Origin: Azolla caroliniana
Lineage: Eukaryota; Plantae; Polypodiophyta
Direction of reading: 5' to 3'
Assembly: GCA_043228905.1 (NCBI GenBank)
Contig: JBHGNT010000072.1
Coordinates: forward strand, 1 to 64,000
DNA: 64,000 bases
Shown: in pieces, positions 1 to 64,000 of the stretch
How positions within the stretch are numbered: the first letter of the stretch is position 1
Layout: each line of letters starts with the position of its first letter
The notes under the pieces: generated by a model
What the model was told of the DNA's origin: nothing
Seen by the model: only the letters and a program-made list of their open reading frames with translations
Database searches by the model: none
Program-made: the position numbers and the translations under genes

Positions 1-4
1 CCTC

Positions 5-280
5 ATGGCATCTCTTAAGATATGGCCCTTCATTTATACAGTCCTTTGGGTGTTGTTTTTGTTGTCTGTTGTATATGCAAACAAGGAAATCGAGTCGGAC
101 ACAAGCGTGGAAACGTCCAAGTGGTATACCCACCATCAACATGGTGCATGGCCAAAGAAGGGTGGCTATAACCATGACCATCATGAACACCACCATGGAG
201 GGTGGTCTTATAGGAAAGGTGGTTATCACCATGGTCATGATGGTCATGATGGTCATGATGGACATAGTGGACACCCCTAG
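5..280 (+). CDS. Small secreted His/Gly-rich protein (GRP/shepherin-like), 91 aa
   Basis: Intact ORF with an N-terminal hydrophobic signal peptide (MASLKIWPFIYTVLWVLFLLSVVYA), a short acidic spacer, then two W-x2/3-KGGY-x-H units and (GHD)3. About 16 His in the last ~50 aa. Upstream context lies outside the window. Confidence 0.7.
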   Translation: MASLKIWPFIYTVLWVLFLLSVVYANKEIESDTSVETSKWYTHHQHGAWPKKGGYNHDHHEHHHGGWSYRKGGYHHGHDGHDGHDGHSGHP

Positions 281-16761: not shown

Positions 16762-17045
16762 TGTTACACTTGCGTGTTCCTCTAGTAGCTTTGATGTGAA
16801 CCATTTTCCCTATACATGGGCACTTTTTACTCTAGTGCTGGCTAGAGGTTTTTTCCCCATGTTACCACATACATGAGTCACTCATATGTGGTGGTACTTA
16901 GTACTTAGGGATATATATTTCAGCTCCTAATTTTTTTAAGAATCATTCATCAATAGAGAGCTATTCCAGCCATTGCCTTCCTCGTGTGAGTGCTTCTTTC
17001 TTTGAGCTTCTTGTGTGTTTCCCACTCTTTCTCACATACCCAACA
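16762..17045 (+). repeat. 5' LTR of the copia element
   Basis: tgttacac...cccaaca, followed by the PBS. Confidence 0.97.
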
Positions 17046-17332
17046 GTGGTATCAGAGCCAAGTTCTTCATCCTCTCCATCTTCGGTTGTCCGCATCGCGG
17101 TGTCGCGGCGCGCGCGCACTTTTCATTGTGCAAAATCAACTTCCGAATATAGAGAAGTGTATTTCAGCACTTGGAGCGCATTTTCAGCAGGTACCCTGCT
17201 GTTTTACCCCCATTTCGAAGCCGTTCGTGTAGTCGAAATCGTCATCCGAGTGATAGTTTGTGAGCTGCATTTTCAGCACTCATTTCCGATTTGTTGAGGT
17301 AATATTTTACCACTTTCTTGTTCTTTGGTAAA

Positions 17333-21604: not shown

Positions 21605-21650
21605 TCTGTCACTCCTTGTACATGTTCACATCATTCGCTCCAGGGGGGTT

Positions 21651-21934
21651 TGTTACACTTGCGTGTTCCTCTAGTAGCTTTGATGTGAACCATTTTCCCT
21701 ATACATGGGCACTTTTTACTCTAGTGCTGGCTAGAGGTTTTTTCCCCATGTTACCACATACATGAGTCACTCATATGTGGTGGTACTTAGTACTTAGGGA
21801 TATATATTTCAGCTCCTAATTTTTTTAAGAATCATTCATCAATAGAGAGCTATTCCAGCCATTGCCTTCCTCGTGTGAGTGCTTCTTTCTTTGAGCTTCT
21901 TGTGTGTTTCCCACTCTTTCTCACATACCCAACA
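21651..21934 (+). repeat. 3' LTR of the copia element
   Basis: Same sequence as the 5' LTR, followed by TSD TCAAC. Confidence 0.97.
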
Positions 21935-21939
21935 TCAAC

Positions 21940-22519
21940 CACCCAATATAGTCATATATAGTGGAACATAGTCATTGTACAATACCCTCTCTTTGCATTT
22001 CAGCTGCTAAATATATACTTTCCATGCAAACATATGCCGAAGCGCACTTCTCATCCAGTCGTATGGATTGATCGAATGTCCATCTTCTAAGTCTCACATT
22101 TGTCCATTTTCTACAAGCACCCAATATAGCCATATATAGCGGATGATGGTCATTGTACAATACCCTCTCCTTGCATTTCAGCTGCTAAATATATACTTTC
22201 CATGCAAACATATGCCAAAGCGCACTTTTCATCCAGTCGTATTGACTGATCAAATGCCCATCTTCCAAGTCTCACATTTGTCCATTTTCGACAAGCACCC
22301 AATATAGTCATATATAGTGGATGATGGTCATTGTACAATACCCTCTCCTTGCATTTCAGCTGCTAAATATATACTTTCCATGCACACATATGCCGAAGCG
22401 CACTTGTCATCCAGTCGTATTGATTCTTCGAATGCCCATCTTCCAAGTCTCACATTTGTCCATTTTCTACAAGCACCCAATATAGTCATATATAGTGGAA
22501 GATGGTCATTGTACAATAC
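21940..22519 (-). repeat. 178-bp tandem array of the PPR 3' end (E1/E2 coding segment); the fourth copy continues at ~16600-16756 beyond the copia element
   Basis: Junction stops at 22328, 22150 and 21972 are spaced exactly 178 bp. The ORF track shows near-identical LYM(T/A)ILGACRKWTNVRL..AAEMQ peptides, and the same sequence recurs at 16621-16754. Confidence 0.93.
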
Positions 22520-25249
22520 TGCTGTGTCAAGCAGTGCTTTCACCTTGTCAAAATGTCCAGCACGACCAAATAAATTGATCATACAACTATAATGTATTAG
22601 TGTTGGGGTAAGGCAATAGACATCAGACATTTCATTGAACAAAATTTCCCCCTCATCCAATAGGCCAGCATGACTACAAACCGTGAGCAAAAGAACAAAA
22701 GTGGCCAAATTGGGCACAATGCCTTCTGTCATCCTCATCATTCTATACAAATTTAACACTACATTAGCTTGACCTAGCTGGGTATATCCACCAATAAGGG
22801 CATTCCACGATCCAGAATCACGCACTGGAAGCTGATCAAATACTTCTCTTGCTTTGTCTGATGCACCATATTTAGAATACATCTGCACCAATGTATTGCC
22901 TAGCACTATATCTTTCTCCAATAATCTTTGAGACCTAACCTCTGTATCTATATCTTGGCCGACCTCTAGGGGCCCTAGAGTGCTACAGGCTTTTAAAATG
23001 GAGATATAAGTTGCCGAATTCGGACAAATCCCTTCATCTTTCATTTGTCTAAAGCGTTGAAATGCTTCATCACCAAGTCCATGTTGTGCATATCCAGAAA
23101 TTAGAGCATTCCATGACACAATATCTGGAACTGGAAGTTGTTCAAATACTTCTTGTGCTTTCTGGATCATGCCGCATTTCAAATACATGTCCACCAATGA
23201 ATTTCCAACCACAACATCTGTGTGTAACAACCCTTGCTTTCTAACCTCTACATCTATGTCTTCCCCAATATCTAGTGATCCTAGAATGCCACAAACTTTC
23301 AAAACACAAATGTAAGTCACTGCATTTGGAGAGATTCCCTTATCTTGCATCTGTCTGAAGCATTTCAATGCTTCATCAGCAAGCCCATGTTGAACATATC
23401 CAGTGATGAGGGCATTCAAAGCTACAACATTAGAGTTCGGAATTTCCTCAAATACTTCTCGTGCTTTCTCCAATGCACCACACTTCGCATACATGTCCAC
23501 CAAGGAAGTACCAAGCACAATGTCTTTCTCCAATAATCCTTGCTTTCTGACTGCAGCACCTATATTATCCCCAATCTCTAGAGATCCAACAATGGCACAA
23601 GCTTTCAAAATGCAGATGTAAGTTACTTCATCCGGACGAATGCCCTCATCTTGCATTTGTTGGAAAAACATCAATGCTTCATTCCCGAGTCCATGGTCAA
23701 CATATCCAGAAATCAAGGCATTCCACACCACAACGTCCCTCAACTGTAATTGTTCAAAAACTTCTGTTGCTTTCTCTAGCGCACCACACTTTGAATACAT
23801 ATCCACCAGTATGGTCCCGAGCACGATGTCTTTATGCAATAACCCTTGCTTTCTTATCTTAACATATATATCTTCCCCAATCTCTAGACAACCTACAATA
23901 CTGCAAGCTTGCAAAACGGATGCATAAGTTACTGCATCTGGATAGATTCCTTCATCTTGCATTTGTCTGAAGCATTGAAGGGCTTCATCACCAAAGCCAT
24001 GTTGAGCATATCCAGCAATGAGAGAATTCCACGACACGATATTGCGGACTAGAAGCTGATCAAATACGTCTCGTGCTTTGTCCAAAACACCACACTTGGA
24101 ATACATGTCCACCAAAGCAGTGCCAAGCACGACATCTTTCCTCAACAACCCTAGCTTTCTCACCTCATTATCTATATCTTTACCAAACTCTAGGGATTTG
24201 ATCACACCACAAGCTTTCAAAATGCATATATAGGTTACTGAATTTGGAAAAATTCCCGCATCTTTCATATGTTTGAAGCATTTCAATGCATCTTCACCAA
24301 ATCCATATTGGACATATCCAGTGATGAGGGCATTCCAAGACACGACATCCTTTATTGGAAGTTCTTCGAACACTTGCCGTGCTTTCTCAAGTGCACCGCA
24401 CTTGGAATACATCCCCACTAATGTATTTCCTATTTCAACGTCTTTTTGCAATAGGCCTTGCTTTCTCACCTCGACATGTATAAATTCCCCCATCTCTAGA
24501 GACCAGGATATACCACAACCTTTCAAAATGGAGATATAAGTTACTCTATCAGGACAAATTCCTCCCAAATCACGCATTTGTTTCAAGCAATTTAACACTT
24601 CATTACCAAGTCCCTTTTGGGCATATCCAAAAATAAGAGCATTCCAAGTCACTATATCTGGTTTAGGGATTTGCTCGAACACTTCTCTTGCTTTTTCAAG
24701 AGCACCACATTTGGCATAAGTTGTGATCAAGGAAGTGGCAATATAAACATCTTTTACAAACAACTCTTTCTCGAGAATGTAAGCATGTATCCGTCTTGCC
24801 TTGCATAAATCCTTGTCTCTACCACATGTCTTTATTGAATTCAGAAGGCGGATTCGATAGCGAGACTGAACTTTGTCAACAACCACATTCTCTTTCTTTG
24901 AAAGATAAACCAATTTGATTTTTTTAAACTCATGTTTGACCCAAGGTGGGGTATGCAATCCATCTATACATAGAATCTCCCCGCTTTCCTTATGCCTGAA
25001 TTCTGCAGATTTAGGGTTTCTCTGTGTATACAGAAAGCATTAAAGGTGAAATGGGCAAGGACCCAAATCAGGTAATAAGGCAAGAAAGTTGTAATGCTTA
25101 CCACGGACTGTTTTCGCCCAAACCAGAATTGTGAGGAATCCTTGAAGAGCTCTGCCCATAGCAAATTGGCCTCTTGGGGGGGCATGGTATTTAGGGTGTT
25201 TTCGCCCATTGCCATTCAACCTCTTTGAAAAACCAAGACTGAGTTTCAT
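22328..25249 (-). CDS. PLS-class pentatricopeptide repeat protein (~23 P/L/S motifs + E1 + partial E2, no DYW)
   Basis: Main exon 24963-22328 holds regular L-S-P triplets (SWNALIxGY, TYICILKAC, LVDMYxKCG), then P2-L2-S2 (CSHAGLLDEG, HYSCMINLFGRAG) and E1 (ILGACRKW). A likely first exon at 25249-25102 (G|gtaagc ... tatag|AT) joins in frame and adds a basic targeting-peptide-like N-terminus. The 5' end is less certain than the body. Confidence 0.9.
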
Positions 25250-42456: not shown

Positions 42457-45400
42457 GAGAGAGAGAGAGAGAGAGAAAGCAAGAGTGGTGAGGAGGAGGA
42501 GAAGAAGAAGCGAATTTGTTTTTGTTGTTGCGCTCTCTATCGACAACAGAATTGGGCACAAAGACAAGGGTTGGAAAGCCCTTAGTTAGAGCTTCGTAAG
42601 GAGATATAGCAAGTTTAATTTGGTGGTCTGTACTAGAAGCAACGATTGAAAGTAGAAATCGTGTGTTGTCGGCATACACATACTCAATATGTATTGCGGA
42701 CCTCCTATTGTCTTCTTCATGTTCGATCGGGGGAGTTTTGGTTTTCTCTCTTATTCATGGAAAATTATGTTTATCATGGATCGATATCACATCAAGAATA
42801 ATGGATATAAGCATGGATTCCTCATAAACTGTGGGGGACATCGATATGGGAATCATTGATCCAATAAAGAGTAATGTGATGATTGAATGTAATTGTGAAA
42901 GGGAAGAATTTGGAAGCTCTAAGAGGTTTAAGGATTTTGAGGAAGTTAATGAGAACAACTTAGCATATGTTGAGGCAATACATGTAGATGAAGTTGACAA
43001 GGATCATCGTAATTGGGATAGTTTATGGGGAATTGCCTATACCTTGTGTTTGATATTGTAGAAAAAAATGAAAATGTAGCAAAAGAATGCATCGATGAGG
43101 ATGTGCATGATGTGGAAGTTGATGCTAAGGCAATATTGCAATCTTTTGATGTATTCTATGATCGTGCGGTTATATTATTTTTTACCGAGAAACTCCCATA
43201 TATATATAAATTGGATTAAACAGTGGTTGAACACAATAGTGTCACCAATTGTGTTGAGGATACATTTGCAGGACCACGAGGGTTTTATGATGTAGTATTT
43301 CGTTCCCCTAAACATCGAAGTGCATTATTGGCTAAAGTTCCAATATTTTTTGATAAACGATTAGTGCATGTAATGCAATGGTCCCCCCTAGTGGACTATC
43401 ATGCTTTGTTGAAACAAGAATGCCCCGTTTGGGTACTATTGGATTGTAAGCATGCATTTTTATGGCCACTTTTACTAGAGTTAATGAGTCAAATGGGTAA
43501 AGTGTTGGTATCTCCACATGCAAATGTTACAAATAAGTGCAGATTTTGTGTGTTATGGGATAAAGTCGTAAGAGGTCAAGATGGGTGCATATGAACATGC
43601 ATGGTATGAAAAGACTTTCTTTTAAATTGAAGTGGGAGACATTTGCAGGTCATTCTTTTGGATGTGATGAATGGTGTCACTTTATGGCGGAATGCCAACG
43701 TCATTGTCCTTCAACTTTAGAGGTTCCTAATGAAGGGAATGGTAAGGAAGGAGTTGGAAGAGATGTTGGTGTGTTAGATATTGTGGTTGTTATGAATCAT
43801 CTAGAGCATGTTATAAAGAGATCTCATTTCAAGGTTTGGGCCCTAAGAATAAGGGAACTCACTCTATAGATATGGAAAAACAAAGTTTAGTGGTTATAGA
43901 TAAGGGGAAAAAACAGTTGGATAGATATAGTAGTGATGTTATTGTTGATAAAGATTGGCATCGGGTTAAGGGCAAGTCGAAGGGGAAATCAATGAATATC
44001 TAACGTAATAGTTTGCCCACTACTCGTGTGACTACTTGGCAAGGTAATTCAGGAACTAGGGAGGGTCCTCGAAAAGTTCATTGGCAACGATAATTTAGGA
44101 ATAAGGGATTACCCCTTCACATTCAATTTGATTAATTGGGATGGGTTGTAAATTCAACGAATCTCGAGGTTTTCGTCAAGCGGGAGGACCTAAACAAAAT
44201 ATTTTGATAGACAACCCTAAGGATGTGGTGCATGAAAATCTATATGCAGCATTGGAACATGCTTTGACTAGTTTCATGACATCGGTTGCTCTAAAGGAGT
44301 AAGTGCACCCATAACATTGTTGATTGAATAAAAGTGGTAACATGGAATGTGAGGGGGACATGTTCTCCTCATAAGAAGTATATATTATGGGAAACTTTGT
44401 TAAGTAAAGAATGGGATGTATTATGTACAATTGGGCATAAGTGTCATGAGTTAGCAGGATTTATAGTTCATTTGCGTGGATATTCATCATTCTATGCAGG
44501 ACATCTTAATAATCATTATTCAGGTGTGGTATTAATCGTGCGGGATAAATATTATCCCCAAGTGGTGTATAATGATCCTTATGATCGGTTTTGGTTCTAG
44601 AAATCTATTTTTTTGGCGAGGTTGTGTGGGTGGTTGGGATTTATGCTCCTAACCAAGCCACTCAACGTATTGCATTATGTGGCTCACTCCTTCAAACCCT
44701 ATGTATAGGTCGTCCAAGATTATTTATGGGTGATTTTAACATGTGTGTTGATGCATCTCAATCTACGTCTGAACATTCAATCATGAATGATCTTGAGCAA
44801 CTTGCTTGGGAGGTTTTGAAGTTGGATGTTTGGACATGTTTGCAAAGGAATGATCTAGGTTTTACTTTCCAATCCGCTCAACATAGACAAACATGGAGTC
44901 AGTTAGATAGAATGTATGTGAGGCACGATGATTCTTTTTTACCGACATCACTTCGTATGACAATTCTACAAGATGTAGGAATTTAAGATCACTTTCCTAT
45001 TTGTTTGGAGGTTTATAGTCATGCAATTGACATGTATAAATCCTTACTTGGAAAGCCTCCATTACGCTTTAACCCTTCTCTTTTGCTTCAACCTCACTTT
45101 AATTCTCTCATGGAGCAAATTTTGGTAAATTTTTCATAACAAGTGAATCTTAAAGGAGTTAAAGTATGGGATATCATGTTACGAAACATTAAGATCATTC
45201 ATCGTATGTATGGAGTAACTAATGCTTAACGAAGAAGAGGTCTTTTTCGACAATTCTCACAAGTTCTCTCCAGGTGTAATGCATTTTTGATACATGCACC
45301 ATTCATTAAATGAGGAGCTTTTGGATATCCAGAGTCAATTGCATATTATTATTTCTCAGTTGTAGTGCCAAAGTTATCATTATGCTAAGATGCGACAACT

Positions 45401-48400
45401 CAGGGATGGGGTCATAGATAATCAATTTCAATATCATTTGTTTTTTTCAAGCATTACATCCTACTTTTGTCTAATGTGGTACATGTGAAGCAAGGGGATG
45501 ACAATAATTGACATATGTGTTCATTACTTTAAGGAGTTAATTGGCCCACAATTGTTAATGACAAATGAGGTGAGTAGAACACATCATGAGTTTTATGATG
45601 CGGTTGGATGTATTGTGCATGATCTTATTAGTCATGAATTGGATGCGGATATCGTGGAGGATGAGGTGGACATGGTTTTAAGGCATCTTCCTAGTAGTAA
45701 GAGAACTTGTTGGGATGGCTTGACAAATGAAGTTTTTAAGCGATATTTGAACATTTTAAATGGGCCCTTAACTTTGATGTTTCAATATTCTTGAGATTCT
45801 AGGTGTATGTCACAATGTTGGAAGGTTGGTCTAATTAAATTAGTTCCAAATGTGGCATCTCCCGAGTCATTTCATCAATGGAGACCTATTCCTTTGATGG
45901 GGAGGTTATATAAGATATTTACAAAGGTCTTGGCAAATAGATTACAAAAGTATTTGCCAAGGTTGATACATCCTGCCCAATATGGTTTTATTGTAGGTAG
46001 GAATATATTACATAATGTGTTGAATATTCAAATGGCCATGCATTATGCTCGAAACACTCATCAAGAATTGATTATGATACAATTAGATTTGGAGAAAGTT
46101 TATGATCATGTTAATTGGCCCTTTGTTTCTGGATTAATGCATACAATGGGCTTTGGACCTCGTATATCTCACCTCATATTTTTATTAGGACAATATGTGG
46201 TGTCTCGAGTAATGCGTAATGGGGGAGTAACATCAAATATTGCCCTCACAAGATCTGTTCGTCAAGGATGCCCACTTAGCCCATTGTTGTTTGCTATTGT
46301 TACTCATCCCTTGTTAGTGACGCTATCAAGGCTTGCAACAAATGGTGACATTCTGGATCTACACCTTCCGTTTAGAGGGCAACTAGTAGCACAAGCTTTG
46401 GCTAATGATTCTTTTATGTTTCTGCAAGCCTCACAAGATAATCTTGAGAGGGGGATGCTTGTATGCAACCAATTTAAATTGGCTTCCGGATTACATATTA
46501 ATTGGAGTAAGTATAGTCTCATGTCATGTATCGAAAGGGATTTAGAATGTTTCGAATGGCAAGGATCCGTGGTGAAGAAAGGTTCTATTTTTCGACACTA
46601 GGGCTATCCATTAGGAATGAATGTTACAAATAATCAATTGATTGAATATATGTCTAGTAAGTTGAGGGATAAGTTCATGTATTGGAAGTCACAATCTTGG
46701 CCATTTCATGTACGCTTGAAGGTTGTAACCCATGATATTATATTACTTGCCATTGTTGCCATGGACAAAGAAGGCTTTGCATTCTGTTTTGCAATCTCTT
46801 TGATATTTGTTGTGGAAGAAGAGGGATAAGATGGGAATCACATGGGTTGCGTGGAATCATCTAGCAACCCCTAAGAGCTTGGGGGGAGCTGGAATATTGA
46901 ACTTATCTATGCATATGATGGCTCTTAGATTTTCATTATTACAAGACATGTGTTCAAACTCGCAACCATATCTATTTGTGCAATATTTCATTGAGAACAA
47001 GGGTTTAACACATGGGAGGACAACGATTAAGGCTTCATGGTGGCAATGATTAAATGGATGTATTTCACTTAGGATTCCGAGCTCTTCATGTGTTCAATAC
47101 TTGGTTACCTAATGGCAAGAACCACTCTTGTTATGTGTATGAAAACTATCATCTAGTATAGAGCATTGTAATTCTTTGCAAAAAGAGTCACTTGTGTCTT
47201 CTATGTTATTATGTTGGCCAGGAAAGGAGAGATTGTGGTCTCAATTTAATCGTTTGTTTCGTTTGGGGGTCAAAGAGGTGGGAGATATAGTTGAGGCTTC
47301 ATCGCAAATAATTTTGGAGTTTGTTGAAGTACGATAATTATTATGAATCTCACCTAATTATGGGTTTATTTGGCAACAACTACAAAATATTGCATTGATA
47401 CAAGGTCCGTTACCTCTACAAACAGGAGAACAATCGTGGATTGATTGGTGTTTACGGGGTCAAACGCTATTGAACATTACAAGTGACTACTAATCTTTTC
47501 TACCATTGCTCTGTTGAGTCTCTTGGATGGTTATCATCTAAGGCTGAAGAAGAATGGAAAATATGCAAATTTGATCATGGGTGATGGCAGATTTAAATTG
47601 CCACTAGTAGCGAAGGTCTTCATTTGGAGAGTTTTGATTGGAGGATTGCCTTTGGGATTAGCTCTACAATGTTGTGGACTAGCAACGGGTAATTGTTTTT
47701 TTTGCATTGTTCCAATGGAAGATAATACTCATTGATTTATACAATGTCTGATTGCTTGTCAGATTTGGACTTATATTTCTCAAATTTGGCAAGTTTTATC
47801 ATGGCGTTATTTGACACCTAGACAATGGGTGTTTGCAATGGTGGAGCTTTCGGTGAAGGTTAGTCAAGTGAACCATAAAGACCGCAACTACTACTGATGG
47901 TAACAATACCTAGATGTCAGAGTAGTGTTCTTGGGCCACTTTGTGCTCCCTTCAAGGAATGGTGGTCGAATGAACCAAACCCTTTCCGTCAAAGTTGCAA
48001 CATGTAATGGCGCTCATTAGTGAACAAGAAGACCCCTAAATACTCACAAATCCAAACCTTAAATTCTCAAGTAGAAAAACAACAAGAACAAGAAACCTAA
48101 ACCCTCATGAAGATGAGGGGGAAAAATCATAAAATCCCCACTAAGCTGAAAAGAAGAATACGAAGAAGAACTTCCAAAAGAAACCTAAGGGTGCACTCTC
48201 AAAACAAAAAATGTACGACCTAAAATAAGCCCTCTTCTCCTCATTTTATAGAGAAAGAGACCCTATTTTTGGCATTCAATGCTTATATCCCATTTTCTTC
48301 GAAAATGCAAAAAGGAATAATTCCTTAATACGCATGCGGCACAAGTAATTCGAACTCTACACCTCTTGTATATAATTAATGGCCCAAAAATAGAATAATT

Positions 48401-50069: not shown

Positions 50070-52907
50070 TTAAGAATCTTGGTAATGAAGCCAACAATCA
50101 TTGGAATGGAAGCTTGCCATGGTGGAGTATGTGCAACTCCGAGCAATGATGGATATGGCAAATTGGAGGCATCGCGTGCAGAAGAATCTCGGAAGAGAAG
50201 GCCGACAATATGCGGTAGCGGAAGCAACATTCCCGACTCGCACTTCAAGTATCCCATTGGACCTCCCTCTCCCCACACTTGCTTGTGTTACCACCTCTCC
50301 CATCATCCATGCCACATCCCTCTCAAATTGCCCATGTGGTTCAAATCTCTCTAGACCACATATGTAGTCATAGGGTGTGGGTAAGTTTGTGATATGTTCG
50401 TTTTGTTGCGGTGATGTTGATGGCTCCCCTATTATGCTTTGCTTAGGCAGACTTATCCATGGTGCATCATGATGATGAATTGGTGATCTAGATGGTGATT
50501 TCGATGGTGATTTCGATGGTGATTTCGATGATGATCTATGTGGTGAGGTTCTTGACTTCATTGGTGTTGGAGAAGGTGATGGTGATGGAGGTTTCGATCC
50601 TATCGCCTTATTCCGATTTGTCGGGATAGTGAGATATGGTGTTTCATGTGTAGAAGAGGATGGAGATGGAGATGGAGAAAGTTCTTCCACAATTGTGGAG
50701 GGTATTGGAGGAGGGGCATATGTTATTATGCTTGATGGAGGACTAGAGGATATAATTGGGCTTGGAGGAGGAGGAGAGATGGTAGATGATATGATTGAAG
50801 GAGGGATAGAAGGAGATATACTTTCTCTAGAGGGAGATGGGGAGATGGTAGAGGATATGGTTTGACTCAAGGGAGATGGGGAGATATTTGAAGGTATGGT
50901 TTCTCTAGGGGGAGATGGGGAGATAGTAGAATATATGACTTCACTCGAGGGAGATGGAGAGATAGTAGAAGATATGACTTCACTCGAGGTAGAGGGAGAG
51001 GGAGAGGGAGAGATAGTAGAAGATATGACTTCACTCGAGGGAGAAGGGGAGATAGTAGAGAATGTGTTTGGGCTCTCACTAGAAGGAGCAATGGTAGATG
51101 GAACCGTTGGGATTGAGGGAGAAGAAGGAGAAGAAGGAGAAGAAGGAGAAGGAGAAATATTGTATGACACAATTGAACTTGAAGGAGTAGGAGAGAAGGC
51201 TCCAATTGATGTACTTGAAGTTGAGGGGGGAGGATAAGGAGCGACATTTCCCGTGTGCTTGGGATGATTTCTATGTGTGGGACTATGCTTCCAAGACGCT
51301 TTAGGATATTGAGGTTTAGAGGGATCCTCAAGTGTTGAGGGAGATGGAGGAATCGGGGACACAATGCTCGATAGTGAGCTTGAGGGAGAGGGAGAGGGAG
51401 AGGGAGAGGGAGGCGGAGGAGAGTTGGACGTCGAAGATTCAAAGCTTGAGGGCGATGGAGAATCAATAAATACAAGGCCCGAGGGAGTGTTAGACGTACT
51501 ATAGGATGAGGGAGAGGGAGTGATATAAGAGGATGCTTGAGAGGGGGAGATGGTGGGTGGAAATGTGTTTACTGGAGATGAAGATGGGGATGGAGATGGA
51601 GATGGAGTATTTGAGATAGATAATGGTGTAGGTGTCAATGCTCTAATGGGGGGAAGGGGAGTGATGCTTGGTGAAAGAGAGAAAGGAGACTCTGAAGGAG
51701 AGGGAGAGGGTACGGAGGAAGTGAGAGGGTGACCTATAGGAGGGAATGTGGCTACCGGTGGTGAAGCATTGGGGGGGTTAGAAGATGACGAAGATATTGA
51801 AGTTATAGGAACAAAATTTGATGACGATTCGAATGATGGGGGTGGGGCTATGGAGTTGCTAGGGGTCAAGGCCAAGGTTGGGGTTGGGGTTGGGGGAGAA
51901 GAATGAGGACTAAAGTTGGTGTGAGATGGAGAAAGAGATGGGGATGGGGATGGGGATGAGGGATGGGGATGGGGATGTGAAGTGGAAGGAGTGGAGTGAA
52001 CATGTGAGGGAGAAGGGGAAAGGAGATGTGAGTGAGAATTGGAAGGAGAAGGGGAAGGAGAGGAAGGTGCATGTTCTATGGAACTTGTTATGCCCTTAGG
52101 AAGAATGTTAGGGGTTGATAAAAGAGAGCTAGAAGGAGATGGAGATTTCGATGGTGGTGTTGATGGGGTTGGGGTTGGGGATAGAGAGGATATGGAACTT
52201 GTCTCATTTACAAAAATGTTAGCGGTTGATGAAAAATCATTGGATGGAGATGGGGACGGAGAGGATATGGAACTTATCTCATCGTCATGAATGTTTGGGG
52301 TTGACGAAAAATCACTGGATGATGGAGATGGAGATGGAGATGGAGTGGATATGGAACTTGTCTCATTGGCAAAAATATAAGGGGTTGACAAATAATCGCT
52401 AGATGCAGATGGAGATGGAGAGGGTATGGAACTTCTCTCATCAGTAAGAATATTTGGTGTTGACAAACTAGATGGAGATGGAGCTAGGGATAGGGATGGA
52501 GAGGATGCAGAACTTGTATCGTCAGCAAGAATGTTAGGGTTTGAAGATAAATCTCTAGAAGGAGATGGGAATGAGGATGAGGGTAATGTAGAATTCGTCT
52601 CATCAACTAGAATATTAGGGACTAGTGAAAAATCACTAGATGGAGATAGGGAGGATATAATACTTGTGTCATCGCCAAGAATGTTGGGTGTTGATGAAAA
52701 GTCACTAGGAAAAGATGGAGATGGGGGTGGGGGTTGCGAGGATATGGAACTTGTACTCTCTTCAAGAATGTTAGGGGTCAACAAAAAGTTGTTAGACGGA
52801 GATGGTGCAATTTCCTCTTGGGCGATCACATTTATGAATGTGAATTGCATATTGACTAACATAACCATTATAACAACTTTCATGGTCGTAGACCTCTTTA
52901 TTGCCAT
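50070..52907 (-). CDS. Secreted Ser/Pro-rich (AGP/extensin/mucin-like) protein with a single C-terminal DUF26/Gnk2 domain, ~945 aa, intronless
   Basis: 2.8-kb open frame from ATG 52907 (alternative ATG 52883). Signal peptide MKVVIMVMLVNMQFTFINVIA|QE, then ~800 aa of SP/TP/AP/SPn repeats. The last ~100 aa have six Cys including C-X8-C-X2-C (CRPSLPRFFCTRC) and end in DCWLHYQDS*. Confidence 0.88.
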   Translation of the reverse strand: MAIKRSTTMKVVIMVMLVNMQFTFINVIAQEEIAPSPSNNFLLTPNILEESTSSISSQPPPPSPSFPSDFSSTPNILGDDTSIISSLSPSSDFSLVPNILVDETNSTLPSSSFPSPSRDLSSNPNILADDTSSASSPSLSLAPSPSSLSTPNILTDERSSIPSPSPSASSDYLSTPYIFANETSSISTPSPSPSPSSSDFSSTPNIHDDEISSISSPSPSPSNDFSSTANIFVNETSSISSLSPTPTPSTPPSKSPSPSSSLLSTPNILPKGITSSIEHAPSSPSPSPSNSHSHLLSPSPSHVHSTPSTSHPHPHPSSPSPSPSLSPSHTNFSPHSSPPTPTPTLALTPSNSIAPPPSFESSSNFVPITSISSSSSNPPNASPPVATFPPIGHPLTSSVPSPSPSESPFSLSPSITPLPPIRALTPTPLSISNTPSPSPSPSSSPVNTFPPTISPSQASSYITPSPSSYSTSNTPSGLVFIDSPSPSSFESSTSNSPPPPSPSPSPSPSSSLSSIVSPIPPSPSTLEDPSKPQYPKASWKHSPTHRNHPKHTGNVAPYPPPSTSSTSIGAFSPTPSSSIVSYNISPSPSSPSSPSSPSIPTVPSTIAPSSESPNTFSTISPSPSSEVISSTISPSPSPSTSSEVISSTISPSPSSEVIYSTISPSPPRETIPSNISPSPLSQTISSTISPSPSRESISPSIPPSIISSTISPPPPSPIISSSPPSSIITYAPPPIPSTIVEELSPSPSPSSSTHETPYLTIPTNRNKAIGSKPPSPSPSPTPMKSRTSPHRSSSKSPSKSPSKSPSRSPIHHHDAPWISLPKQSIIGEPSTSPQQNEHITNLPTPYDYICGLERFEPHGQFERDVAWMMGEVVTQASVGRGRSNGILEVRVGNVASATAYCRPSLPRFFCTRCLQFAISIIARSCTYSTMASFHSNDCWLHYQDS

Positions 52908-54290
52908 CTTAATCCTATAAACAACAAAGACCACAATTATTAAACATGTAATTATATATCAACTACACAAAGTCATTGGATGTGGTCATAAAGAAACATG
53001 TAATAACTCTTCTTAGCATACATGTGTGAAGGATTGCTAGCTAAATTTTGCATTGAAGAGTTTAATTTAAGGGTGACAAAATTATTTTCTGCTATTGAAC
53101 CATTAATATCACAACTCCCTACTGGACCATTCTAAGTAACATTGTGCATCTTAACTCTTAACATTCTCCATTATTTGGTTATATTATTATCACGGTTCTT
53201 TGCAAGACTCTCTCAGCTTAGTATTCCAATAATTGAAATTGTATTACATATTAAATAGTGATGTTCATCATCACTTTGTTAGATGTAGTGATAAAACTCA
53301 CAACTCAACCCGTAATGTTAAAAATGTGTGAATTGTTTCAACACATGTTCATATTAAAACATGTAAACATGTGCATTTAGTTTTCATAATGTAAATAATT
53401 TTCTATCATGAAAACATGAATTTGATCCCTTGATTTTCCTATTGAAAAAGAAAATGTTAGTTATTCAGATGTTGCCCAAGCTAGAGTAGAGAACCTGCAT
53501 GTAAATGAACACATATTTTGAGAATCACTATGTAGAACCTCGTATATCCACATAGTTTCAAAGCTCGATATTTCTATTTATAATACAAGCTCACCATCAA
53601 CCTAATGAGCAACAATGAACGAGATTTTTAAATTGTATTGGTAATAACACCTTTCTTTCATGTACATTTTATATTATATGACATGTTCAATCACAATTAC
53701 AGACACAATTCTCTTTCTCTTTGTGTGGGGCAATAATATATCAATATATGAGAGTGAACTTTTCACTACTTAATTTTTTAAGTAGTGAAACTTTGAGTTT
53801 TTTTATATGGTTTCGTTAAATATATGAATGTGAAAACTATAACTTGCATATACATATGCGCAAATAAACCGTTGTAATTGAAATACCACATAATCATCAT
53901 TATGTACTAAAAGGAACAAAAAAACAATGTAATCAAAATTCCAATAACATTGTTTACTATTTAAATAAACACAACAAATGCACATGTTATAAATTAGGGT
54001 TAGTGTGATCTTGTTAGTAAACATTAAAAAGCTTTCCCAATTTTACTACACGAAGTCAGTAAATGGTTGCTCATGTGCAACACTTTGAAATGGTATTCGA
54101 AATTTCGCTTTCAGATCTCTCTAACTTTGAAGAACAAAAGGATTAGTATATTTATATGTATGGGCTTCCTTTTCAGATTTGGTTGTGTGAAAGTGTCAAT
54201 GTATGAATAGGAGGCTAAAACGAAAAACTTATGGCTAGTACTATAAAAGAAATGCACCTAATCTTGCATGTGTTCAAGAGAGCATGGTTT

Positions 54291-55118: not shown

Positions 55119-55328
55119 TAATATCCCTATGATGATATTCATTAACATCTTTCATCAAATTTAAACAAGCTATATGTGTATAATTTTGTGTGTATCCACA
55201 TACATATAAGTCTTGAAGACATTATCTACAACCTACTTATATGTATGTGGATTACACACAAAATTATACACATATAACTTGTTTAAATTTGATGAAAGAT
55301 GTTAATGAATATCATCATAGGGATATTA
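55119..55328. repeat. Near-perfect inverted repeat/hairpin (93-94-bp arms, 23-nt loop)
   Basis: 55119-55211 is the reverse complement of 55235-55328 except for one substitution and a 1-nt indel. Confidence 0.92.
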
Positions 55329-57860: not shown

Positions 57861-57864
57861 AGAT

Positions 57865-60800
57865 ATGGCGGCGGAAGGAGGCGCTTCCAACATTCAGATA
57901 TACTTGCGAATGCGACCTATATCGGGAAACCCCGCGACTTATGAGATCGATCCCGATGAAGGTAGAGTGCAGTGGCATGTGCCCCGCCATATCTCCCTCG
58001 GCATGGTGAACCATCAGAAGGAGCGATACGATTTCCTCTTCAACCATATCTTCGATATAGATGGCAAGCAAGAGGATGTTTTCGAGAAAGTTGCTCAGAA
58101 GGTTAGCTGCTACACCCATACTTTTTCTTCTGTATATATGTATGTTTATACCTATGCATATGCCTGTATATAGGTGTAGGTAATTGTATCCGTATAGCTG
58201 TATTGTGTGTTTATACCTATGCATATGCCTTATGTATTCGTACCTATATACATGTACGTATGTAGATTTTATTTGCATGTATATAAATCGTATTATCATT
58301 CTAAAGGCCAAATAAGTGACCCATGTGACCCAAAGATGTATGTATATAAATAGTATTATCATTCTGAAGGTCAAATAAGTGACCCATGTGACCCAAAGAA
58401 CTATTTCTATGTAGTGTTTGGAGGTAATAAGGGATTTTTGATAAATCCATCAGTGCTTATTCTGTATCCAGTTTGATATTTTCTGTTGTGCCCACTAGAT
58501 TCTTCTCTGTTTGGGTGATCTCTAGACATGAACTGTTAGTGATCCATTGAAATGGACGCAGAACATCTATCTTCATGCCATGTAAGTGAAACAATTGTTG
58601 CATTTGAGCATATTAATAATAATTGCCCCCTGGTTTGTCTAGTTTTTTGGATGAATTAAGTAAATCAGTTCTCCAGTAGGCTTCCATCAGTGGGGGTGAG
58701 AGCAGCCCCAATAGGATCAAGGCATTATTCCAATCTGTGATCAATATTCAATGGATTTGGGAGCTCTGTGAGCAAATCTACTCAAGAACGGTACTGATGT
58801 CATCAAACCAACTTGTTGAACTTGGTAATACATTTTTGGTATCCTGAAATGCGAGAATGGTTCAAGTTGAACAACATAAGTATAAACATACTTAACCCTG
58901 TGGATTGTCCACATCAAAACATGACTAAGTGTAAAATAATAGATTGGTTTGAGCTGATATCATTAATTGGATAATGAGAGAGTGTGGAGGAACTCCACAA
59001 CTTCTCTTGGTAGGAAGATGGCCCCATTGTAAGGCACTCTTTTCAAACACATAGCGAGCTGGATTTATTCCCAGGCTTTCTTATATGGATATACATCTGT
59101 CATGTCTGCTGCAGTGTGATAGGGAAGCACATCTGTTAGAAATTGAGATAGGCATGTATGCAGTCAAATCTATGGGATAATGTATCTTCCAATTGTCTCG
59201 TTGTGGGTGGAATCGGAAAAACATTGTTTGCTACGGTGATATTACTGCCTTCTTGAACAAGCTTTGGCCCACTACACAAGTAAATGGAGTATGGAGGTAG
59301 TGTTTGGGACAGTTCTTGCCAGAACTGAAGATATGTAGAGAGAGGTTGAATGACAGCAACACAACCACAATAACTCATCAACAGAGGACAATCATGACTT
59401 GTTTCAGCTCCATCACTCCTTATACCACAAGTCAATCAAGGACCAGACAAGTGGGGTCTTGATGAGGAGAATTGAAAGAGATTACAACAGAAAAGGTAAT
59501 AGCAGTTTGTCATGAACGTAGGTCATGACCATTTTAGACCGTGGCCTTGCCATCCTTATCTTTGGAAAATAAAGGTCATTATCCACATCTTGGAATGGCC
59601 CATGTTAGAGATTTTTCGAATCCAAAAGTGTCATCTATCTACTTCTAGAATCTTAAATGCTTAGATAACTAGATTCTTTACTTACTATATTTAGTTATAT
59701 TTGTTTTGGTCTATTTTTCTTAAAGACGAGACAACATTTTAAGATGGAATCTTTTGTTTGGTGTCTTAAAATACCTCAATACAGTTCACTTTCTTTCTTT
59801 CTATTAATGTCACAACCTGAAACAAAGCCTCTATACAATTTGGGGACACCTTTTCTCAGCTTCAAATAATGCCCCTCATAAAGAGACTGTGGCCTGCTAG
59901 AATCCTGCTAGAGATTTTGAACACAGTAATATCTGCAGATAGTGATATAGTGATGAGTGCTGTAAGGAAGAACCGTGCGATGCTCAATCTATCTGATTAG
60001 TTAGATATCTCACAATACAAGCTTGAAGAGAGAGTAAGTTCAACCTTAAGTACTTTCTGATTGAGCCAGCAATTAGTTAACATGTCACCTTGGAAGAAAT
60101 CTCCTGCTAAAGAAGAAATATCTTTTTAAGACTTGGGCTCACTAAGACCTATTTTCACACCCAAGAAGCTAAATTTCCTATAAGCAAGGAATAGGACACC
60201 CTGAAAACCCCAATGAACTCTGACCATTTTGGTGAGAGGCAGAGATTGATGGAGAGGGAGGGAGAGAAATGAAATGTAACATTGAGGTTTGGAACAAATT
60301 ATTATGGAATTGTATTTTTATTTGCAGGTTGTGCTAGGAGCTTTGGATGGTTATAATGGGACGATCTTTGCTTATGGGCAGACAGGATCAGGAAAGACTT
60401 TCACAATTACTGGTGGTGCTGAAAGATACGTTGATAGAGGGATTATACCTCGAGCTATCTCCCTAATTTATAGTGAGTTGGGAAAGAGAAGTAACTATAC
60501 ATATACAATACATTTCTCATATCTCGAAATCTACAATGAAACTGGGATTGATTTGCTGAATCCTGATCATGAAACAAAGGCTTTAGAAGAGTTGCCTAAG
60601 GTTCTTTTATTTCTCAATCAATCTAGTAGTAAGTTAAGGTTATGTTATTTTTCTGCCTGTCTAAATGATGACATTATCAAGCTAATTATTTAATTTTCTA
60701 GAATATAAGGATATACACACTCTTTCTCTTTCTCTCTCTCCCGCCATCGTAGGTGCTTCCCTCGCTTCGGAGACATTTCCATTTTGGATTACCTATGCTA

Positions 60801-63800
60801 GAGATCGTTCGAAGACAAAAGCTACAATATACCTACCTTAAGAATCTCACATGTGCCAAAAACCAGATTCCCTCGTTTCTTCTCTTTTCATCTGATTTAC
60901 TTTTATATTTATTGTGTAATATTTATTTTATTTTGATTTGTTCTCAACCATTTTGGCCTCTTAAAAGACGTTAATATATCTTTCTTTCTTCTTCTTCTTC
61001 TTCTTCTCCTAGAAGCCCTTGGTGTTCCTACATATATGCAATGGGGAGTCTATGCACTCTATGAATCCATGTCAGGAGAAGTGCGGTCTCCCAAGGGCTT
61101 GTCAAAGGATGTGGCTAGTAGAATTGGAGTGAAGCAAGGATGCCCACTATCCCCCACTCTCTTCGGTCTCTATATAGATGAGGTATCACATTACATAGAG
61201 AGATTCGGGGGTTCCAGAGCATGCCTAGCAGGTATAGCTATACAAATATTACTATATGCTGATGACATTGTGCTGATTTCTGACTCTCCGGAGGGACTAC
61301 AAAGGCATCTAAATGCCTTAAAACTATTTTGTACGGACAAAGGTTTGTCAATCAACATGGACAAAACTAAAGTGATGGTGTTTAACACCACTCAAGCATG
61401 GGTAACAAGATCAGAACCAGAATTCTTCTTGGGAGAGGAAAAGGTGGAATACACACACTCCTACACATACCTAGGAGTAACATTTACAGGACCTAGGTTC
61501 TCCTTACAGGAGGCTGCTTGTGCCCGACTTTCTCGTGGATATGCAGCCCTTGGTGCTCTCGAGAGACAATGTGCACATTTGCAGTTCCAAGAGCCACGGA
61601 TTAAGCTATGGTTATTTGATACACTTGTCACACCAACTCTTCTCTATGGAGTAGAAACATGGGGACTAAGTCTTAACAAGGCAAATCATTGGAAAGATTT
61701 AGAGAGACCTTTAATGTCAATGATTGCTCGCATGATAAGGAGCAAAGCATCGGTGCCCCACGATATAATCCGGGCAGAGATGGGAGCAGCACCTATAATA
61801 ACCGAGGCATTGTTCCGATCAGTGAAATTTATCCAACGTCTTTGGGAGTTCCCTAAACGAAGGTACCCAAGGTTGGCACTTATGTCATCAAGACAACTGG
61901 CTGAAAATGGAGACACTCATTGTTGGTATGCTGAAATGCAGCAATGGTTCGAGTCATATGGCATGAGGATAAATGCACTACCCCTGTTCGAATATAGCTT
62001 GGATTTTCCCCACCTAAATATGACCAAAGTGGAAAAGAATAGAGTGATCCGAACTGATAGTATTAACTTGGAAAACAAGATAACATGGATCAGCCCCAAA
62101 ATACCACTTGGTACAAAGATGGCCCACTATAAGACACACTTCTTACATACATCGGCGGATGGATTCGTCATGAGGCCACCTTATATGGACATACATCTAT
62201 CCTATGCGCTGCGTAGTGTGATAGGGCAGCTGCAAACTTCATCACATCAACTACAGATTGAGGTAGGAAGATATACACGACTACCTCTAGAAGAGAGAAT
62301 TTGCCAATTGTGTCATCAAGGAGTGGAATCTGAGGAACACTATGTTTGTCATTGTAGTGTCTTTTATGAAACCAGAGGGAGATACCATTGCCTCTTTAAA
62401 CAAGGCTTTGGCCCACTACGCAAGGCAATGGAATATGAGGACCAACGATGCCTAGGACTTTTCTTGCTAGAGCTCAAGAGACATCGGGGAAAGTTGTTGA
62501 AGAATACAACCACACAAGCTCATCCACAAAGAACAATCATAACTTTCTTTAGCCCCATCAATCCTACTAATGCTACAAGTCCATCACGGGATACACAAAT
62601 GGGCTCTAGACCAGGACATAACAAAGGGGTTACAATTGATCGGGCAATAGCAATTTTCCGTGCACGTAGGCCCCGCCCCCATGGACCATGCCCTCGACAC
62701 CCTTGTCATTGACATATAAAAGCCATTATCTCCCGCCATCGTAGGTGCTTCCCTCTCTTCGGAGACATTCCCATTCTGGATCGACCTATGCTAGAGGTCT
62801 TTCGAAGACAAAAGCTACAATATACCTAACTTGAGAATCTCACATGTGCCAAAAACCGGATTCCCTCGTTTCTTCTCTTTTCATCTTATTTACTGTGTAG
62901 TATTTATTTTATTTTGATTTGTTCTCAAAGACAAGACAACACTCAAGATGTAATCTCTTATTTGGTCTTATAGGTCATTTTGGCCTCTTAAAAGACGTTA
63001 ATATATCATTCATTCATTCTTTCTTTCTCTCTCCCAATCCTAATGCTCAGGCTTGGGTACCTTCATTCTTGATTTCATGTTGGCTGACTGAACTTAGCTT
63101 GGTCTACATACAACGGCCAATCTACATCCTGTTAGATAAATTGGGATAATAGACTTTTTGCAGTTTATTTTTAAGAGGTAGTTTAACTTGGATTGCTATT
63201 TTGTCTTTATTAAGAGAAATAAATTTGGGTTCATTCAGATAAGGGCATCCTTATCAGTCGTTGCTCTAGCTGTAACACTGAAGCACTCCTATGATAAAAC
63301 TATGATTAAGTATACTTCTGCTGCAAAGCTAATTTTACGTGTCAATCATAGCACTTATGATGCTGGATGGCAAAGATGGTGGCAGAGAATATATTAAAAT
63401 ATAACTTCACTCTAATGTCACTGAGTTTAGGGGAAAATTTGATTTTTTATTATTATAATTTAAATGGAAAGCCTTTCTGGCTCATAGATCTTTATGAAAA
63501 CTCCAATTTAAAGCTTAACATTTGTTTCTACGAGCTTCATGGTATTCTCTGAAATGCCAGACCATCGTAGAATGGTGTAGCAAAAGTTCTAAAGTAAAGC
63601 TTGACATTTATCTGCGACAAGCTAACACAATGCCATCATAGAGTTGTGTGTCAAAAGCTCTAATTTAAAGCTCAACTTCTAGTTTCTATGAGCTTCATGA
63701 TATTGGCTTAGATGCAACAACATTGTAGAATTGTGTGTTACAAGTTCTAGAAGCTAGTAAAAACAAGGCTGTTAAGATTTTAATTCAGTTACTGTTTGTG

Positions 63801-64000
63801 AATGGTTTAAACACTTGATATCTTGAATAAATGTATCTAAGCATCTATGCCATTTTATGAGATATTGAATCACCCAAATTTATAACTTCTTTTGATGGAT
63901 TATTCTTAGGCCAATTATATACTTTCTGAAATTTCTGTAGGTGGTGCTTCTTGAAGATGATGAAAATGTGATTCACATGCGGAATTTATCATCACATCTT
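57865..64000 (+). CDS. KIF6: Kinesin-9 (KIF6-like) motor, 5' part only (3 exons, continues beyond the window)
   Basis: Exons 57865-58101, 60328-60600, 63941-64000+, all phase 0. [56 protein letters not shown] and LEELPKVVLLED..IHMRNLS closely match KIF6 signature segments as recalled. Confidence 0.9.
58277..58399. repeat. 63-bp-period tandem duplication in kinesin intron 1
   Basis: atgtatataaat(c/a)gtattatcattct..agg.caaataagtgacccatgtgacccaaaga twice. Confidence 0.85.
58620..59800 (+). mobile_element. Old, heavily decayed copy of the RTE/RTEX-like LINE in kinesin intron 1
   Basis: Remnant similarity to 61780-63000 (gcagccccaata..aggcatt.ttcc.atc.gtga, tgatgtcatcaa..caact, tggtat.ctgaaatgc..aatggttc, gctttggcccactac.caag..aatgga.tat, aaagacgagacaac..aagatg.aatct), ending in TTTC repeats. 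Confidence 0.75.
60735..60985 (+). mobile_element. Short 3'-end copy of the RTE/RTEX-like LINE
   Basis: Near-identical to 62729-63006 with an internal deletion. Preceded by (CT)n and followed by (TTTC)(CTT)n. Confidence 0.9.
61009..63033 (+). mobile_element. 5'-truncated non-LTR retrotransposon (RTE/RTEX-like LINE) in kinesin intron 2
   Basis: Starts mid-RT directly after the previous copy's (CTT)n tail and ends in a 3' UTR plus (TTCA)(TTTC)(CT) tail. Confidence 0.9.
61036..62712 (+). CDS. Truncated LINE ORF2: RT C-terminal half + C-terminal zinc finger (uninterrupted 558 aa)
   Basis: GVKQGCPLSPTLF, LLYADD, INMDKTKVMVF, YTYLGV, SHQLQIEVGRY...ICQLC...ESEEHYVCHC. Confidence 0.88.
   Translation: MQWGVYALYESMSGEVRSPKGLSKDVASRIGVKQGCPLSPTLFGLYIDEVSHYIERFGGSRACLAGIAIQILLYADDIVLISDSPEGLQRHLNALKLFCTDKGLSINMDKTKVMVFNTTQAWVTRSEPEFFLGEEKVEYTHSYTYLGVTFTGPRFSLQEAACARLSRGYAALGALERQCAHLQFQEPRIKLWLFDTLVTPTLLYGVETWGLSLNKANHWKDLERPLMSMIARMIRSKASVPHDIIRAEMGAAPIITEALFRSVKFIQRLWEFPKRRYPRLALMSSRQLAENGDTHCWYAEMQQWFESYGMRINALPLFEYSLDFPHLNMTKVEKNRVIRTDSINLENKITWISPKIPLGTKMAHYKTHFLHTSADGFVMRPPYMDIHLSYALRSVIGQLQTSSHQLQIEVGRYTRLPLEERICQLCHQGVESEEHYVCHCSVFYETRGRYHCLFKQGFGPLRKAMEYEDQRCLGLFLLELKRHRGKLLKNTTTQAHPQRTIITFFSPINPTNATSPSRDTQMGSRPGHNKGVTIDRAIAIFRARRPRPHGPCPRHPCH

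What the first reader, a model, noticed from the sequence alone, without database searches (positions are those of the whole stretch)
50070..52907. Giant HRGP/mucin-like stalk fused to a single C-terminal DUF26 (Gnk2) domain: a candidate undescribed chimeric cell-wall protein
Seen: an intronless ~945-aa ORF with a signal peptide, ~800 aa of Ser/Pro/Thr-rich sequence (SPSPSP, AP/TP dipeptides, SP3-4 blocks, an HPHPHP segment, a basic SKSPSKSPSKSPSRSP + HHH patch), then one DUF26 with six Cys and C-X8-C-X2-C. There is no TM segment, kinase or obvious GPI tail. Established: DUF26 normally occurs in small secreted CRRSPs/Gnk2, PDLPs and CRKs, while the familiar chimeric AGP/extensin partners are fasciclin, phytocyanin, nsLTP, PAC, LRR, formin and kinase domains. 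Inference: a lectin-fold head displayed on a long O-glycosylated spacer, like a mucin or fungal adhesin, possibly for mucilage, wall adhesion or pathogen trapping. I do not know this architecture as a described class.
Basis: partly seen in the sequence, partly recalled or inferred. Interest (0 to 1): 0.78.

Follow-up and report, generated by a model that had tools for sequence, protein, structure and literature searches.

The report
Giant proline-rich stalk with DUF26 head
An intact plant gene encodes a 945-residue protein in which a roughly 815-residue serine/proline-rich stalk ends in one DUF26 domain; it is likely a secreted, heavily sugar-coated cell-wall protein whose head, which lacks the known mannose-binding residues, would grip some other partner, a new combination of familiar parts.

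Summary
50070-52907 (-) is one 945-aa ORF: a likely signal peptide, an 816-aa stalk (65% P/A/S/T, mostly isolated Ser-Pro) and one terminal DUF26 (PF01657 29.8 bits; six Cys; predicted Gnk2 fold, TM 0.79). No TM, kinase or GPI tail. It is a constrained gene: dN/dS 0.09 and 0.28 in the head, pN/pS about 0.34 in the stalk. An independent contig bridges stalk and head, and a 54%-identical relative also has a Ser/Pro stalk, a shared HHH-x2-PW motif and the same stop position. Corrections: the stalk is AGP-like, not extensin-like, and all three Gnk2 mannose-binding residues are replaced, so a mannose lectin or pathogen trap is unsupported. I did not find this arrangement catalogued: 58 of 58 single-DUF26 proteins in the reference set are short, and 19 of 19 catalogued DUF26-AGP chimeras have the reverse order. 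But DUF26-AGP chimeras are a listed class, stalk plus Cys-rich head is the AGP31 design, and a Castilleja protein has a stalk before two DUF26. Transcription, glycosylation and ligand are not shown. Verdict: new variant of a known kind; interest 0.42.

The parts
50070..52907 (-). Single-ORF gene, 945 aa
   Evidence: shuffle control; purifying selection
52821..52907 (-). Likely signal peptide, aa 1-29 (basic n-region, hydrophobic core, V-x-A cleavage pattern; Met9 is an alternative start)
   Evidence: hydropathy peak 2.12; no dedicated predictor available
50373..52820 (-). Ser/Pro-rich stalk, aa 30-845, 64.6% PAST; 112 isolated S/T/A/V-Pro sites; 12 clustered AG-motif spans; 7 N-glycosylation sequons
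52038..52796 (-). Nine degenerate acidic repeats of 23-37 aa around a PNI-like core (aa 38-290; pI about 4.0 for aa 30-270)
   Evidence: periods 75 and 159 nt
51888..52097 (-). His-rich segment, aa 271-340 (14% His), includes HPHPHP
51228..51317 (-). Short Lys/His-rich segment, aa 531-560
50805..51059 (-). Tandem 13-aa repeat (39 nt, 6.2 copies), aa 617-701
50481..50535 (-). Basic SKSP repeat (12 nt, 4.6 copies); aa 771-845 has pI 10.6
50442..50486 (-). SP-x-HHH-x2-PW-x3-PK motif, aa 808-822, shared with the 54%-identical relative although the flanking stalk is not alignable
50073..50372 (-). Single DUF26/Gnk2 domain, aa 846-945, six Cys, mannose triad replaced; stop follows directly
52953..52958 (-). 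TATA-like sequence 51 nt upstream of the ATG (weak: AT-rich DNA)

Best explanation
The gene encodes a long Ser/Pro-rich stalk ending in one DUF26 domain; the product is likely a secreted arabinogalactan-type proteoglycan held in the wall or a wall-derived gel by non-covalent contacts, with the head predicted to bind a partner other than mannose. Shown: the ORF, the composition, the domain, selection on both parts, and the lack of TM, GPI tail and Tyr cross-link motifs. Inferred, step by step: (1) the signal peptide sends it through the secretory path; (2) the roughly 112 isolated X-Pro sites are hydroxylated and carry type II arabinogalactan (Hyp-contiguity rule), giving a hydrated bottle-brush with a contour length of up to about 250 nm (816 residues at about 0.3 nm, a textbook figure); (3) the His-rich and basic patches bind acidic pectin; (4) the disulfide-stabilised head binds a wall glycan or protein. 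It would work like type-3 PAC proteins such as AtAGP31, with DUF26 in place of PAC and a far longer stalk.
For: ORF and composition. 12 AG-motif spans under my re-implementation of the strict dipeptide rule quoted in 10.1101/2022.12.15.520549. Isolated Hyp to AG rule in PMC7511660. Head: PF01657 above cut-off; AF2 model pLDDT 88.7, pTM 0.81; the 6 Foldseek hits at E<=0.001, of 500 listed, are all PDLP5/8 or Gnk2 chains, TM 0.78-0.85. Selection: against L001, 9 synonymous and 3 nonsynonymous changes in 106 head codons, dN/dS 0.09, p=2e-4; against L003, dN/dS 0.28 over 103 codons; the 40 listed of 55 X1 differences give 6 of 6 synonymous in the head and 18 synonymous to 16 nonsynonymous in the stalk, pN/pS 0.34, p=0.0014; all 4 listed X1 indels keep the frame. 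An X1 contig of 785 nt runs unbroken from about aa 643 to aa 907. Relative L003 has an open Ser/Pro frame (78 aa, 64% PAST, to the contig edge), the HHH motif, the head and the same stop position. AtAGP31 design and PAC-galactan binding in PMC7177597. Many DUF26 proteins bind neither mannose nor CBM1 (PMC9521807); PDLP5 bound none of the tested carbohydrates (PMC6368629).
Against: Transcription is not shown, and no ligand is known. Ala is scarce (2.6%) for a classical AGP, and fern AGP fractions are low in Hyp (1.5-5% of protein), so heavy glycosylation is an extrapolation from seed plants. The signal peptide core is short and polar. The relative's stalk is known for only 78 aa, and a second contig of that locus (L002) has different upstream DNA with no long open frame. 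The frame-keeping indels are multiples of 6 nt, and in a gene rich in 6-nt repeats slippage would favour such lengths anyway. Pectin binding by the His/basic patches is by analogy only (recalled for AGP31).
Confidence: 0.5

Rival explanations
1. Tethered defence protein: the head binds a microbial protein or glycan (as OsRMC binds fungal CBM1 or Gnk2 binds mannose), and the stalk holds it in the wall or in surface mucilage.
For: The characterised secreted DUF26 proteins are defensive (PMC9521807, PMC5923269). The head sits on a long branch (1.59 changes per column). Maize AFP1 tolerates single changes in the triad.
Against: All three Gnk2 mannose residues are replaced in both the gene (G/S/Q) and its relative (G/S/H). 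The head is under strong purifying selection among close relatives (dN/dS 0.09), not diversifying. No tandem DUF26 cluster in the 64-kb window. A single OsRMC domain bound neither ligand.
Confidence: 0.2
2. Reproductive or exudate mucilage protein: the same molecule, but secreted into a specialised gel (archegonial canal, spore or sorus mucilage, root cap) for adhesion, swelling or sperm recognition, as a plant counterpart of algal shaft-and-head agglutinins.
For: Very long unanchored stalk with a terminal globular head. Narrow distribution: 1 close hit among 16 in 1.84 billion representatives. The neighbouring kinesin exon best matches kinesin-9/KIF9 structures, which by my recall points to a plant with swimming sperm.
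Against: No tissue expression data. Narrow distribution may only reflect poor database cover of this lineage. The agglutinin comparison is recalled, not tested.
Confidence: 0.17
3. Pro-protein: the stalk is a carrier that aids secretion or keeps the head inactive, and it is cut near the conserved HHH-x2-PW motif or the basic patch to release a small Gnk2-like protein.
For: The motif lies about 30 aa before the head and is kept in the relative while the rest of the stalk is not alignable. SP repeats raise secretion of fused proteins (PMC7511660). 58 of 58 catalogued single-DUF26 proteins are small.
Against: An 800-aa stalk under purifying selection is far longer than a carrier needs; no recognisable protease site was identified.
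Confidence: 0.1
4. Artefact: a chance or mis-assembled fusion of a repeat-rich ORF with a DUF26 exon, or a pseudogene or truncated CRK.
For: L002 differs from L003 upstream of a hexamer repeat, so misjoins do occur in such sequence. No RNA proof.
Against: An independent contig bridges the junction; the relative has the same junction and stop; purifying selection in both parts; the only GT in the last 60 nt lies in the codon of the sixth Cys, so splicing on to a TM exon would break the domain.
Confidence: 0.03

Closest known systems
Single-DUF26 CRRSPs (Gnk2; sdCRRSP class of PMC6368629)
   Same: Signal peptide, one DUF26 with six Cys and the Gnk2 fold, no TM or kinase.
   Different: 58 of 58 sdCRRSP entries in that paper's sequence file are short, with the domain right after the signal peptide (read by eye). 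Here 816 aa intervene and the mannose triad is replaced. Ferns were omitted from that study.
'Chimeric (Stress-antifung)' AGPs (PMC5266747, Table S7)
   Same: PF01657 plus AG glycomodules plus signal peptide.
   Different: 19 of 19 are angiosperm proteins of 280-528 aa with the DUF26 region first and a short Pro-rich tail after it, CRK-like. Here the order is reversed, there is one domain, and the glycomodule region is 816 aa.
Type-3 PAC-domain proteins (AtAGP30, AtAGP31)
   Same: Signal peptide, His stretch, Pro-rich/AGP region, C-terminal six-Cys domain, no anchor (PMC7177597). Best model for how it works.
   Different: The head is DUF26, not PAC (PF01190 not hit); the stalk is Ser-Pro and much longer; unrelated by descent.
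Castilleja foliolosa KAL3624686.1 (P0016, 601 aa, hypothetical protein)
   Same: Hydrophobic N-terminus, about 360 aa of 62% PAST stalk, then terminal DUF26.
   Different: Two DUF26 domains; AP- and SP2-4-rich stalk; its first domain does not group with this gene's head with support, so probably a separate origin (not formally tested).
PDLPs and CRKs
   Same: DUF26 fold; PDLP8 domain A is the best solved sequence match (E 4e-7).
   Different: They have tandem DUF26 followed by a TM helix, with or without a kinase; none of this is present.

Membership tests
DUF26/Gnk2 domain proteins | PF01657 above the curated cut-off | tested here: met
   29.8 bits against 25 for the domain alone; 24.1 on the whole protein
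DUF26/Gnk2 domain proteins | C-X8-C-X2-C, six conserved Cys and Gnk2 fold | tested here: met
   model pLDDT 88.7, TM 0.79 to 3a2e
sdCRRSP | Signal peptide | tested here: inconclusive
   hydropathy peak 2.12 and V-x-A pattern; no SignalP available
sdCRRSP | One DUF26, no TM, no kinase | tested here: met
   same stop position in L001 and L003
sdCRRSP | Small protein, domain directly after the signal peptide (true of all catalogued members, not part of the written definition) | tested here: not met
   816-aa stalk against 58 of 58 short entries
sdCRRSP | Falls in the sdCRRSP clade | not tested
   the tree held no Gnk2-type or spore-plant sdCRRSP rows
Gnk2-type mannose lectin | N11/R93/E104 triad | tested here: not met
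   G851/S932/Q943 by alignment to 3a2e; triad
Gnk2-type mannose lectin | Mannose binding, antifungal activity | not testable with these tools
   needs protein
Chimeric AGP | Clustered [STAGV]P spans outside the domain plus a Pfam domain | tested here: met
   12 spans by my version of the strict rule; PF01657
Chimeric AGP | Hyp-linked type II arabinogalactan, Yariv reactivity | not testable with these tools
   needs protein
Cross-linking extensin | Repeated SP3-5 with Tyr cross-link motifs | tested here: not met
   two SP4 blocks; no VYK; the only YxY is at the head boundary
GPI-anchored AGP | Hydrophobic C-terminal signal | tested here: not met
   last 25 aa average -0.49 and belong to the domain
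PDLP / CRK | Tandem DUF26 plus TM helix | tested here: not met
Type-3 PAC-domain protein | C-terminal PAC domain (PF01190) | tested here: not met
   only PF01657 hit; the resemblance is in design only

The most novel reading that the evidence does not exclude
A small, lineage-restricted family of giant stalked single-DUF26 proteoglycans in a spore-bearing plant: a plant mucin or adhesin whose head has traded the Gnk2 mannose site for a new ligand and is displayed up to about 250 nm out, with a conserved HHH-x2-PW motif as a second binding or processing site; with the Castilleja protein, stalk-before-DUF26 would have arisen at least twice.
Probability: 0.35. Interest if true: 0.62.

Novelty: new variant of a known kind. 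Interest (0 to 1): 0.42.

Why it matters
The ligands of most DUF26 domains are unknown, and ferns were left out of the main DUF26 survey. A single, soluble, strongly conserved DUF26 head without the mannose site, fixed to a wall-type glycoprotein stalk, is a clean handle for asking whether DUF26 binds the plant's own wall. It would add a fourth layout (stalk first) to CRRSP, PDLP and CRK, and show the AGP31 design arising with a different head. It does not imply new chemistry.

Tried and rejected
Expression: no RNA holder was listed. X1 is of unrecorded kind; it lies on the ORF and on the LINE in the kinesin intron and not on most flanking DNA. That fits a transcriptome, but I do not count it as evidence. 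X2 shows a joint between two kinesin exons (58103 to 60335), so it likely is RNA; it lies only on repeat bits of the ORF, and X3 laid nothing: blanks, no evidence. No whole genome is held, so copy number was not tested beyond the window (no second DUF26). Word-based homolog searches: 0 of 55 candidates at near-full length, 0 of 45 longer, 1 of 3319 with the alignment; weak for absence. Viral contigs: 0 of 22 candidates. ESM Atlas gave only PF01657 clusters under 0.9. The first fold with 4 sequences was poor (pLDDT 46) and its fold search uninformative; VIA-align was not run. Head homodimer prediction: no answer, score 0.02; neither for nor against. Earlier scan findings: nothing. The search for the original Gnk2-mannose paper found nothing; the triad is taken from two secondary papers. 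Rejected: extensin (no cross-link motifs), truncated CRK exon (no usable donor, shared stop), an intron read as stalk (stop-free, selected), the antisense ORFs (by-products of the repeats).

Full report
OBSERVATION. 50070-52907 (-) is one 945-codon ORF from ATG to TAA; 300 base shuffles gave at most 265 stop-free codons in six frames. Residues 1-29 look like a signal peptide by hydropathy and a V-x-A pattern (no SignalP available). Residues 30-845 are 64.6% PAST, Ser 31.7%, Pro 21.8%, Ala only 2.6%, with no Cys. Prolines are mostly isolated: 79 SP, 23 TP, 6 AP and 4 VP single-Pro sites, two SP4 blocks, no VYK. The stalk is ordered: nine acidic repeats of 23-37 aa, a His-rich stretch, a short Lys/His stretch, a 13-aa tandem repeat and a basic SKSP repeat. 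Residues 846-945 are one DUF26: 29.8 bits for the domain alone, above the cut-off of 25; 24.1 on the whole protein, below it, so whole-protein pipelines could miss it. An AF2 model from 15 sequences (pLDDT 88.7) matches PDLP5/8 and Gnk2 at TM 0.78-0.85; these are the only 6 hits at E<=0.001. There is no TM segment or GPI tail.

IS IT ONE REAL GENE? Run X1 (kind not on record) has a 785-nt contig from 50189 to 50979 with 10 substitutions and a 12-nt deletion, bridging about 200 aa of stalk and 60 aa of head. Of the 55 X1 differences, 40 were listed: 6 of 6 in the head are synonymous, and the stalk has 18 synonymous to 16 nonsynonymous, pN/pS 0.34, p=0.0014 (the unlisted 15 could shift this). 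The metagenome scan confirmed 3 of 111 candidates. L001 is a close ortholog (93.6% over 503 nt, including 3' flank; head dN/dS 0.09; the contig begins at the head, so it says nothing on the stalk). L002 and L003 hold a 54%-identical relative (dN/dS 0.28). In L003 the frame is open from the contig edge through 78 aa of 64% PAST sequence, the shared SP-x-HHH-x2-PW-x3-PK motif and the head, to a stop at the same position. L001 and L002 come from one assembly at similar depth by their contig names, so these are likely paralogs, though two plants in one sample is possible. Against: L002 is identical to L003 only from a hexamer repeat onward and has no long frame upstream; I read this as a misjoin, but a truncated allele is possible. 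Transcription was not shown.

CONTEXT. The window holds no second DUF26. Neighbours are a copia element, a PLS-type PPR gene, LINE pieces, a glycine-rich protein and a kinesin. The kinesin exon best matches kinesin-9/KIF9 structures. DUF26 is confined to land plants (PMC6368629), and kinesin-9 goes with swimming sperm (my recall), so the host is likely a spore-bearing plant; fern is my guess, not shown.

THE HEAD. Aligned to Gnk2, the six Cys are kept, but the mannose triad N11/R93/E104 (PMC5923269; 10.64898/2026.07.30.741491) reads G851/S932/Q943, and G/S/H in the relative. In a tree of 58 domains (left out: P0018, P0020-P0023; no Gnk2-type rows) the gene, L001, P0002 and P0019 form a clade (100/100) on a long branch on the DUF26-A side. 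Its place among sdCRRSPs is not resolved.

HOW IT LIKELY WORKS. Secretion, Pro hydroxylation and arabinogalactan addition at isolated X-Pro sites (rule in PMC7511660; 12 clustered spans) would give a large hydrated bottle-brush. With no anchor or Tyr cross-links it would be held by His/basic patches and by the head. This is the design of type-3 PAC proteins such as AtAGP31, whose PAC domain binds galactans in vitro (PMC7177597). I give this 0.5; defence tether 0.2; specialised mucilage or reproductive gel 0.17; cleaved pro-protein 0.1; artefact 0.03. All steps after translation are inferred.

COMPARISON WITH WHAT IS KNOWN. All 58 sdCRRSP entries in the PMC6368629 sequence file are short, and ferns were omitted there. 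A motif search of that file showed 11 of 29 places, all after the DUF26 pair. PF01657 is already a chimeric-AGP partner (PMC8471777, PMC5073881), and PMC5266747 Table S7 lists 19, all angiosperm, domains first and a short tail after. Among 16 hits in 1.84 billion representatives, one is the close relative and one, Castilleja P0016, has a 360-aa Pro-rich N-terminus before two DUF26; the other 14 do not. I found no paper describing a stalk-first DUF26 protein (searches; open-access library only). Supplement 1 of PMC6368629 was too large to read.

WHAT I SAW OF EACH PAPER. PMC6368629: passages, section 6, searches in supplements 3 and 7. PMC5266747: passages, section 17, 19 rows of Table S7. Passages only: PMC8471777, PMC5073881, PMC12209756, PMC9521807, PMC5923269, PMC7511660, PMC7177597, 10.1101/2022.12.15.520549, 10.64898/2026.07.30.741491. 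PMC12590268: term search, no hits. Recalled, from no call: algal agglutinins, His-pectin binding in AGP31, polyproline rise per residue, kinesin-9 distribution.

VERDICT. A real, selected, probably two-copy gene family with an uncatalogued layout of known parts: new variant of a known kind. A cell-wall or DUF26 specialist would find it worth a look, not startling.

Noticed in passing
window 16762-21934 (+): Ty1/copia element with an unbroken 1433-codon gag-pol frame and a 284-nt terminal repeat that is 100% identical at both ends: a very recent insertion.
   Followed up: partly
window 21936-22519: Tandem repeat of about 178 nt, 93% identical, between the copia end and the PPR gene end; a 133-nt piece also matches 16622-16754.
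   Followed up: no
window 22328-25039 (-): Intronless PLS-type PPR gene, about 900 codons, internally repeated at about 306 nt; best solved match a synthetic PPR-DYW, no DYW family hit.
   Followed up: partly
window 57862-64000 (+): Kinesin-9/KIF9-like gene; exons near 57865-58103 and 60331-60600, joined in run X2; continues past the window end.
   Followed up: partly
window 60737-62928: LINE-type RT element inside the kinesin intron, flanked by a 210-nt direct repeat at 89% identity; an older related copy at 58697-59583.
   Followed up: no
window 43220-46826 (+): Broken LINE (DUF4283, endonuclease, RT pieces) 3 kb downstream of the gene.
   Followed up: no
window 2-277 (+): Secreted glycine/histidine-rich protein fragment, PF07172 38.2 bits.
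   Followed up: no
window 52908-52930 (-): U-rich tract ending in TAG 8 nt before the ATG: could be a splice acceptor of a 5' UTR intron, or simply UTR after the TATA-like box.
   Followed up: no
L002:1-667 against L003:1-133: Two contigs of the same locus are identical downstream of a hexamer repeat and unrelated upstream; database protein P0020 takes its first 17 residues from the L002-type sequence and is probably a wrong start.
   Followed up: partly
protein P0016 (Castilleja foliolosa KAL3624686.1): Hypothetical protein with a 360-aa AP/SP-rich N-terminus and two terminal DUF26 domains; a second stalk-first DUF26 layout, in a flowering plant.
   Followed up: partly
window 55119-55328: 210-nt near-perfect inverted repeat (93%), MITE-like or hairpin, 2.2 kb upstream of the gene.
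   Followed up: no
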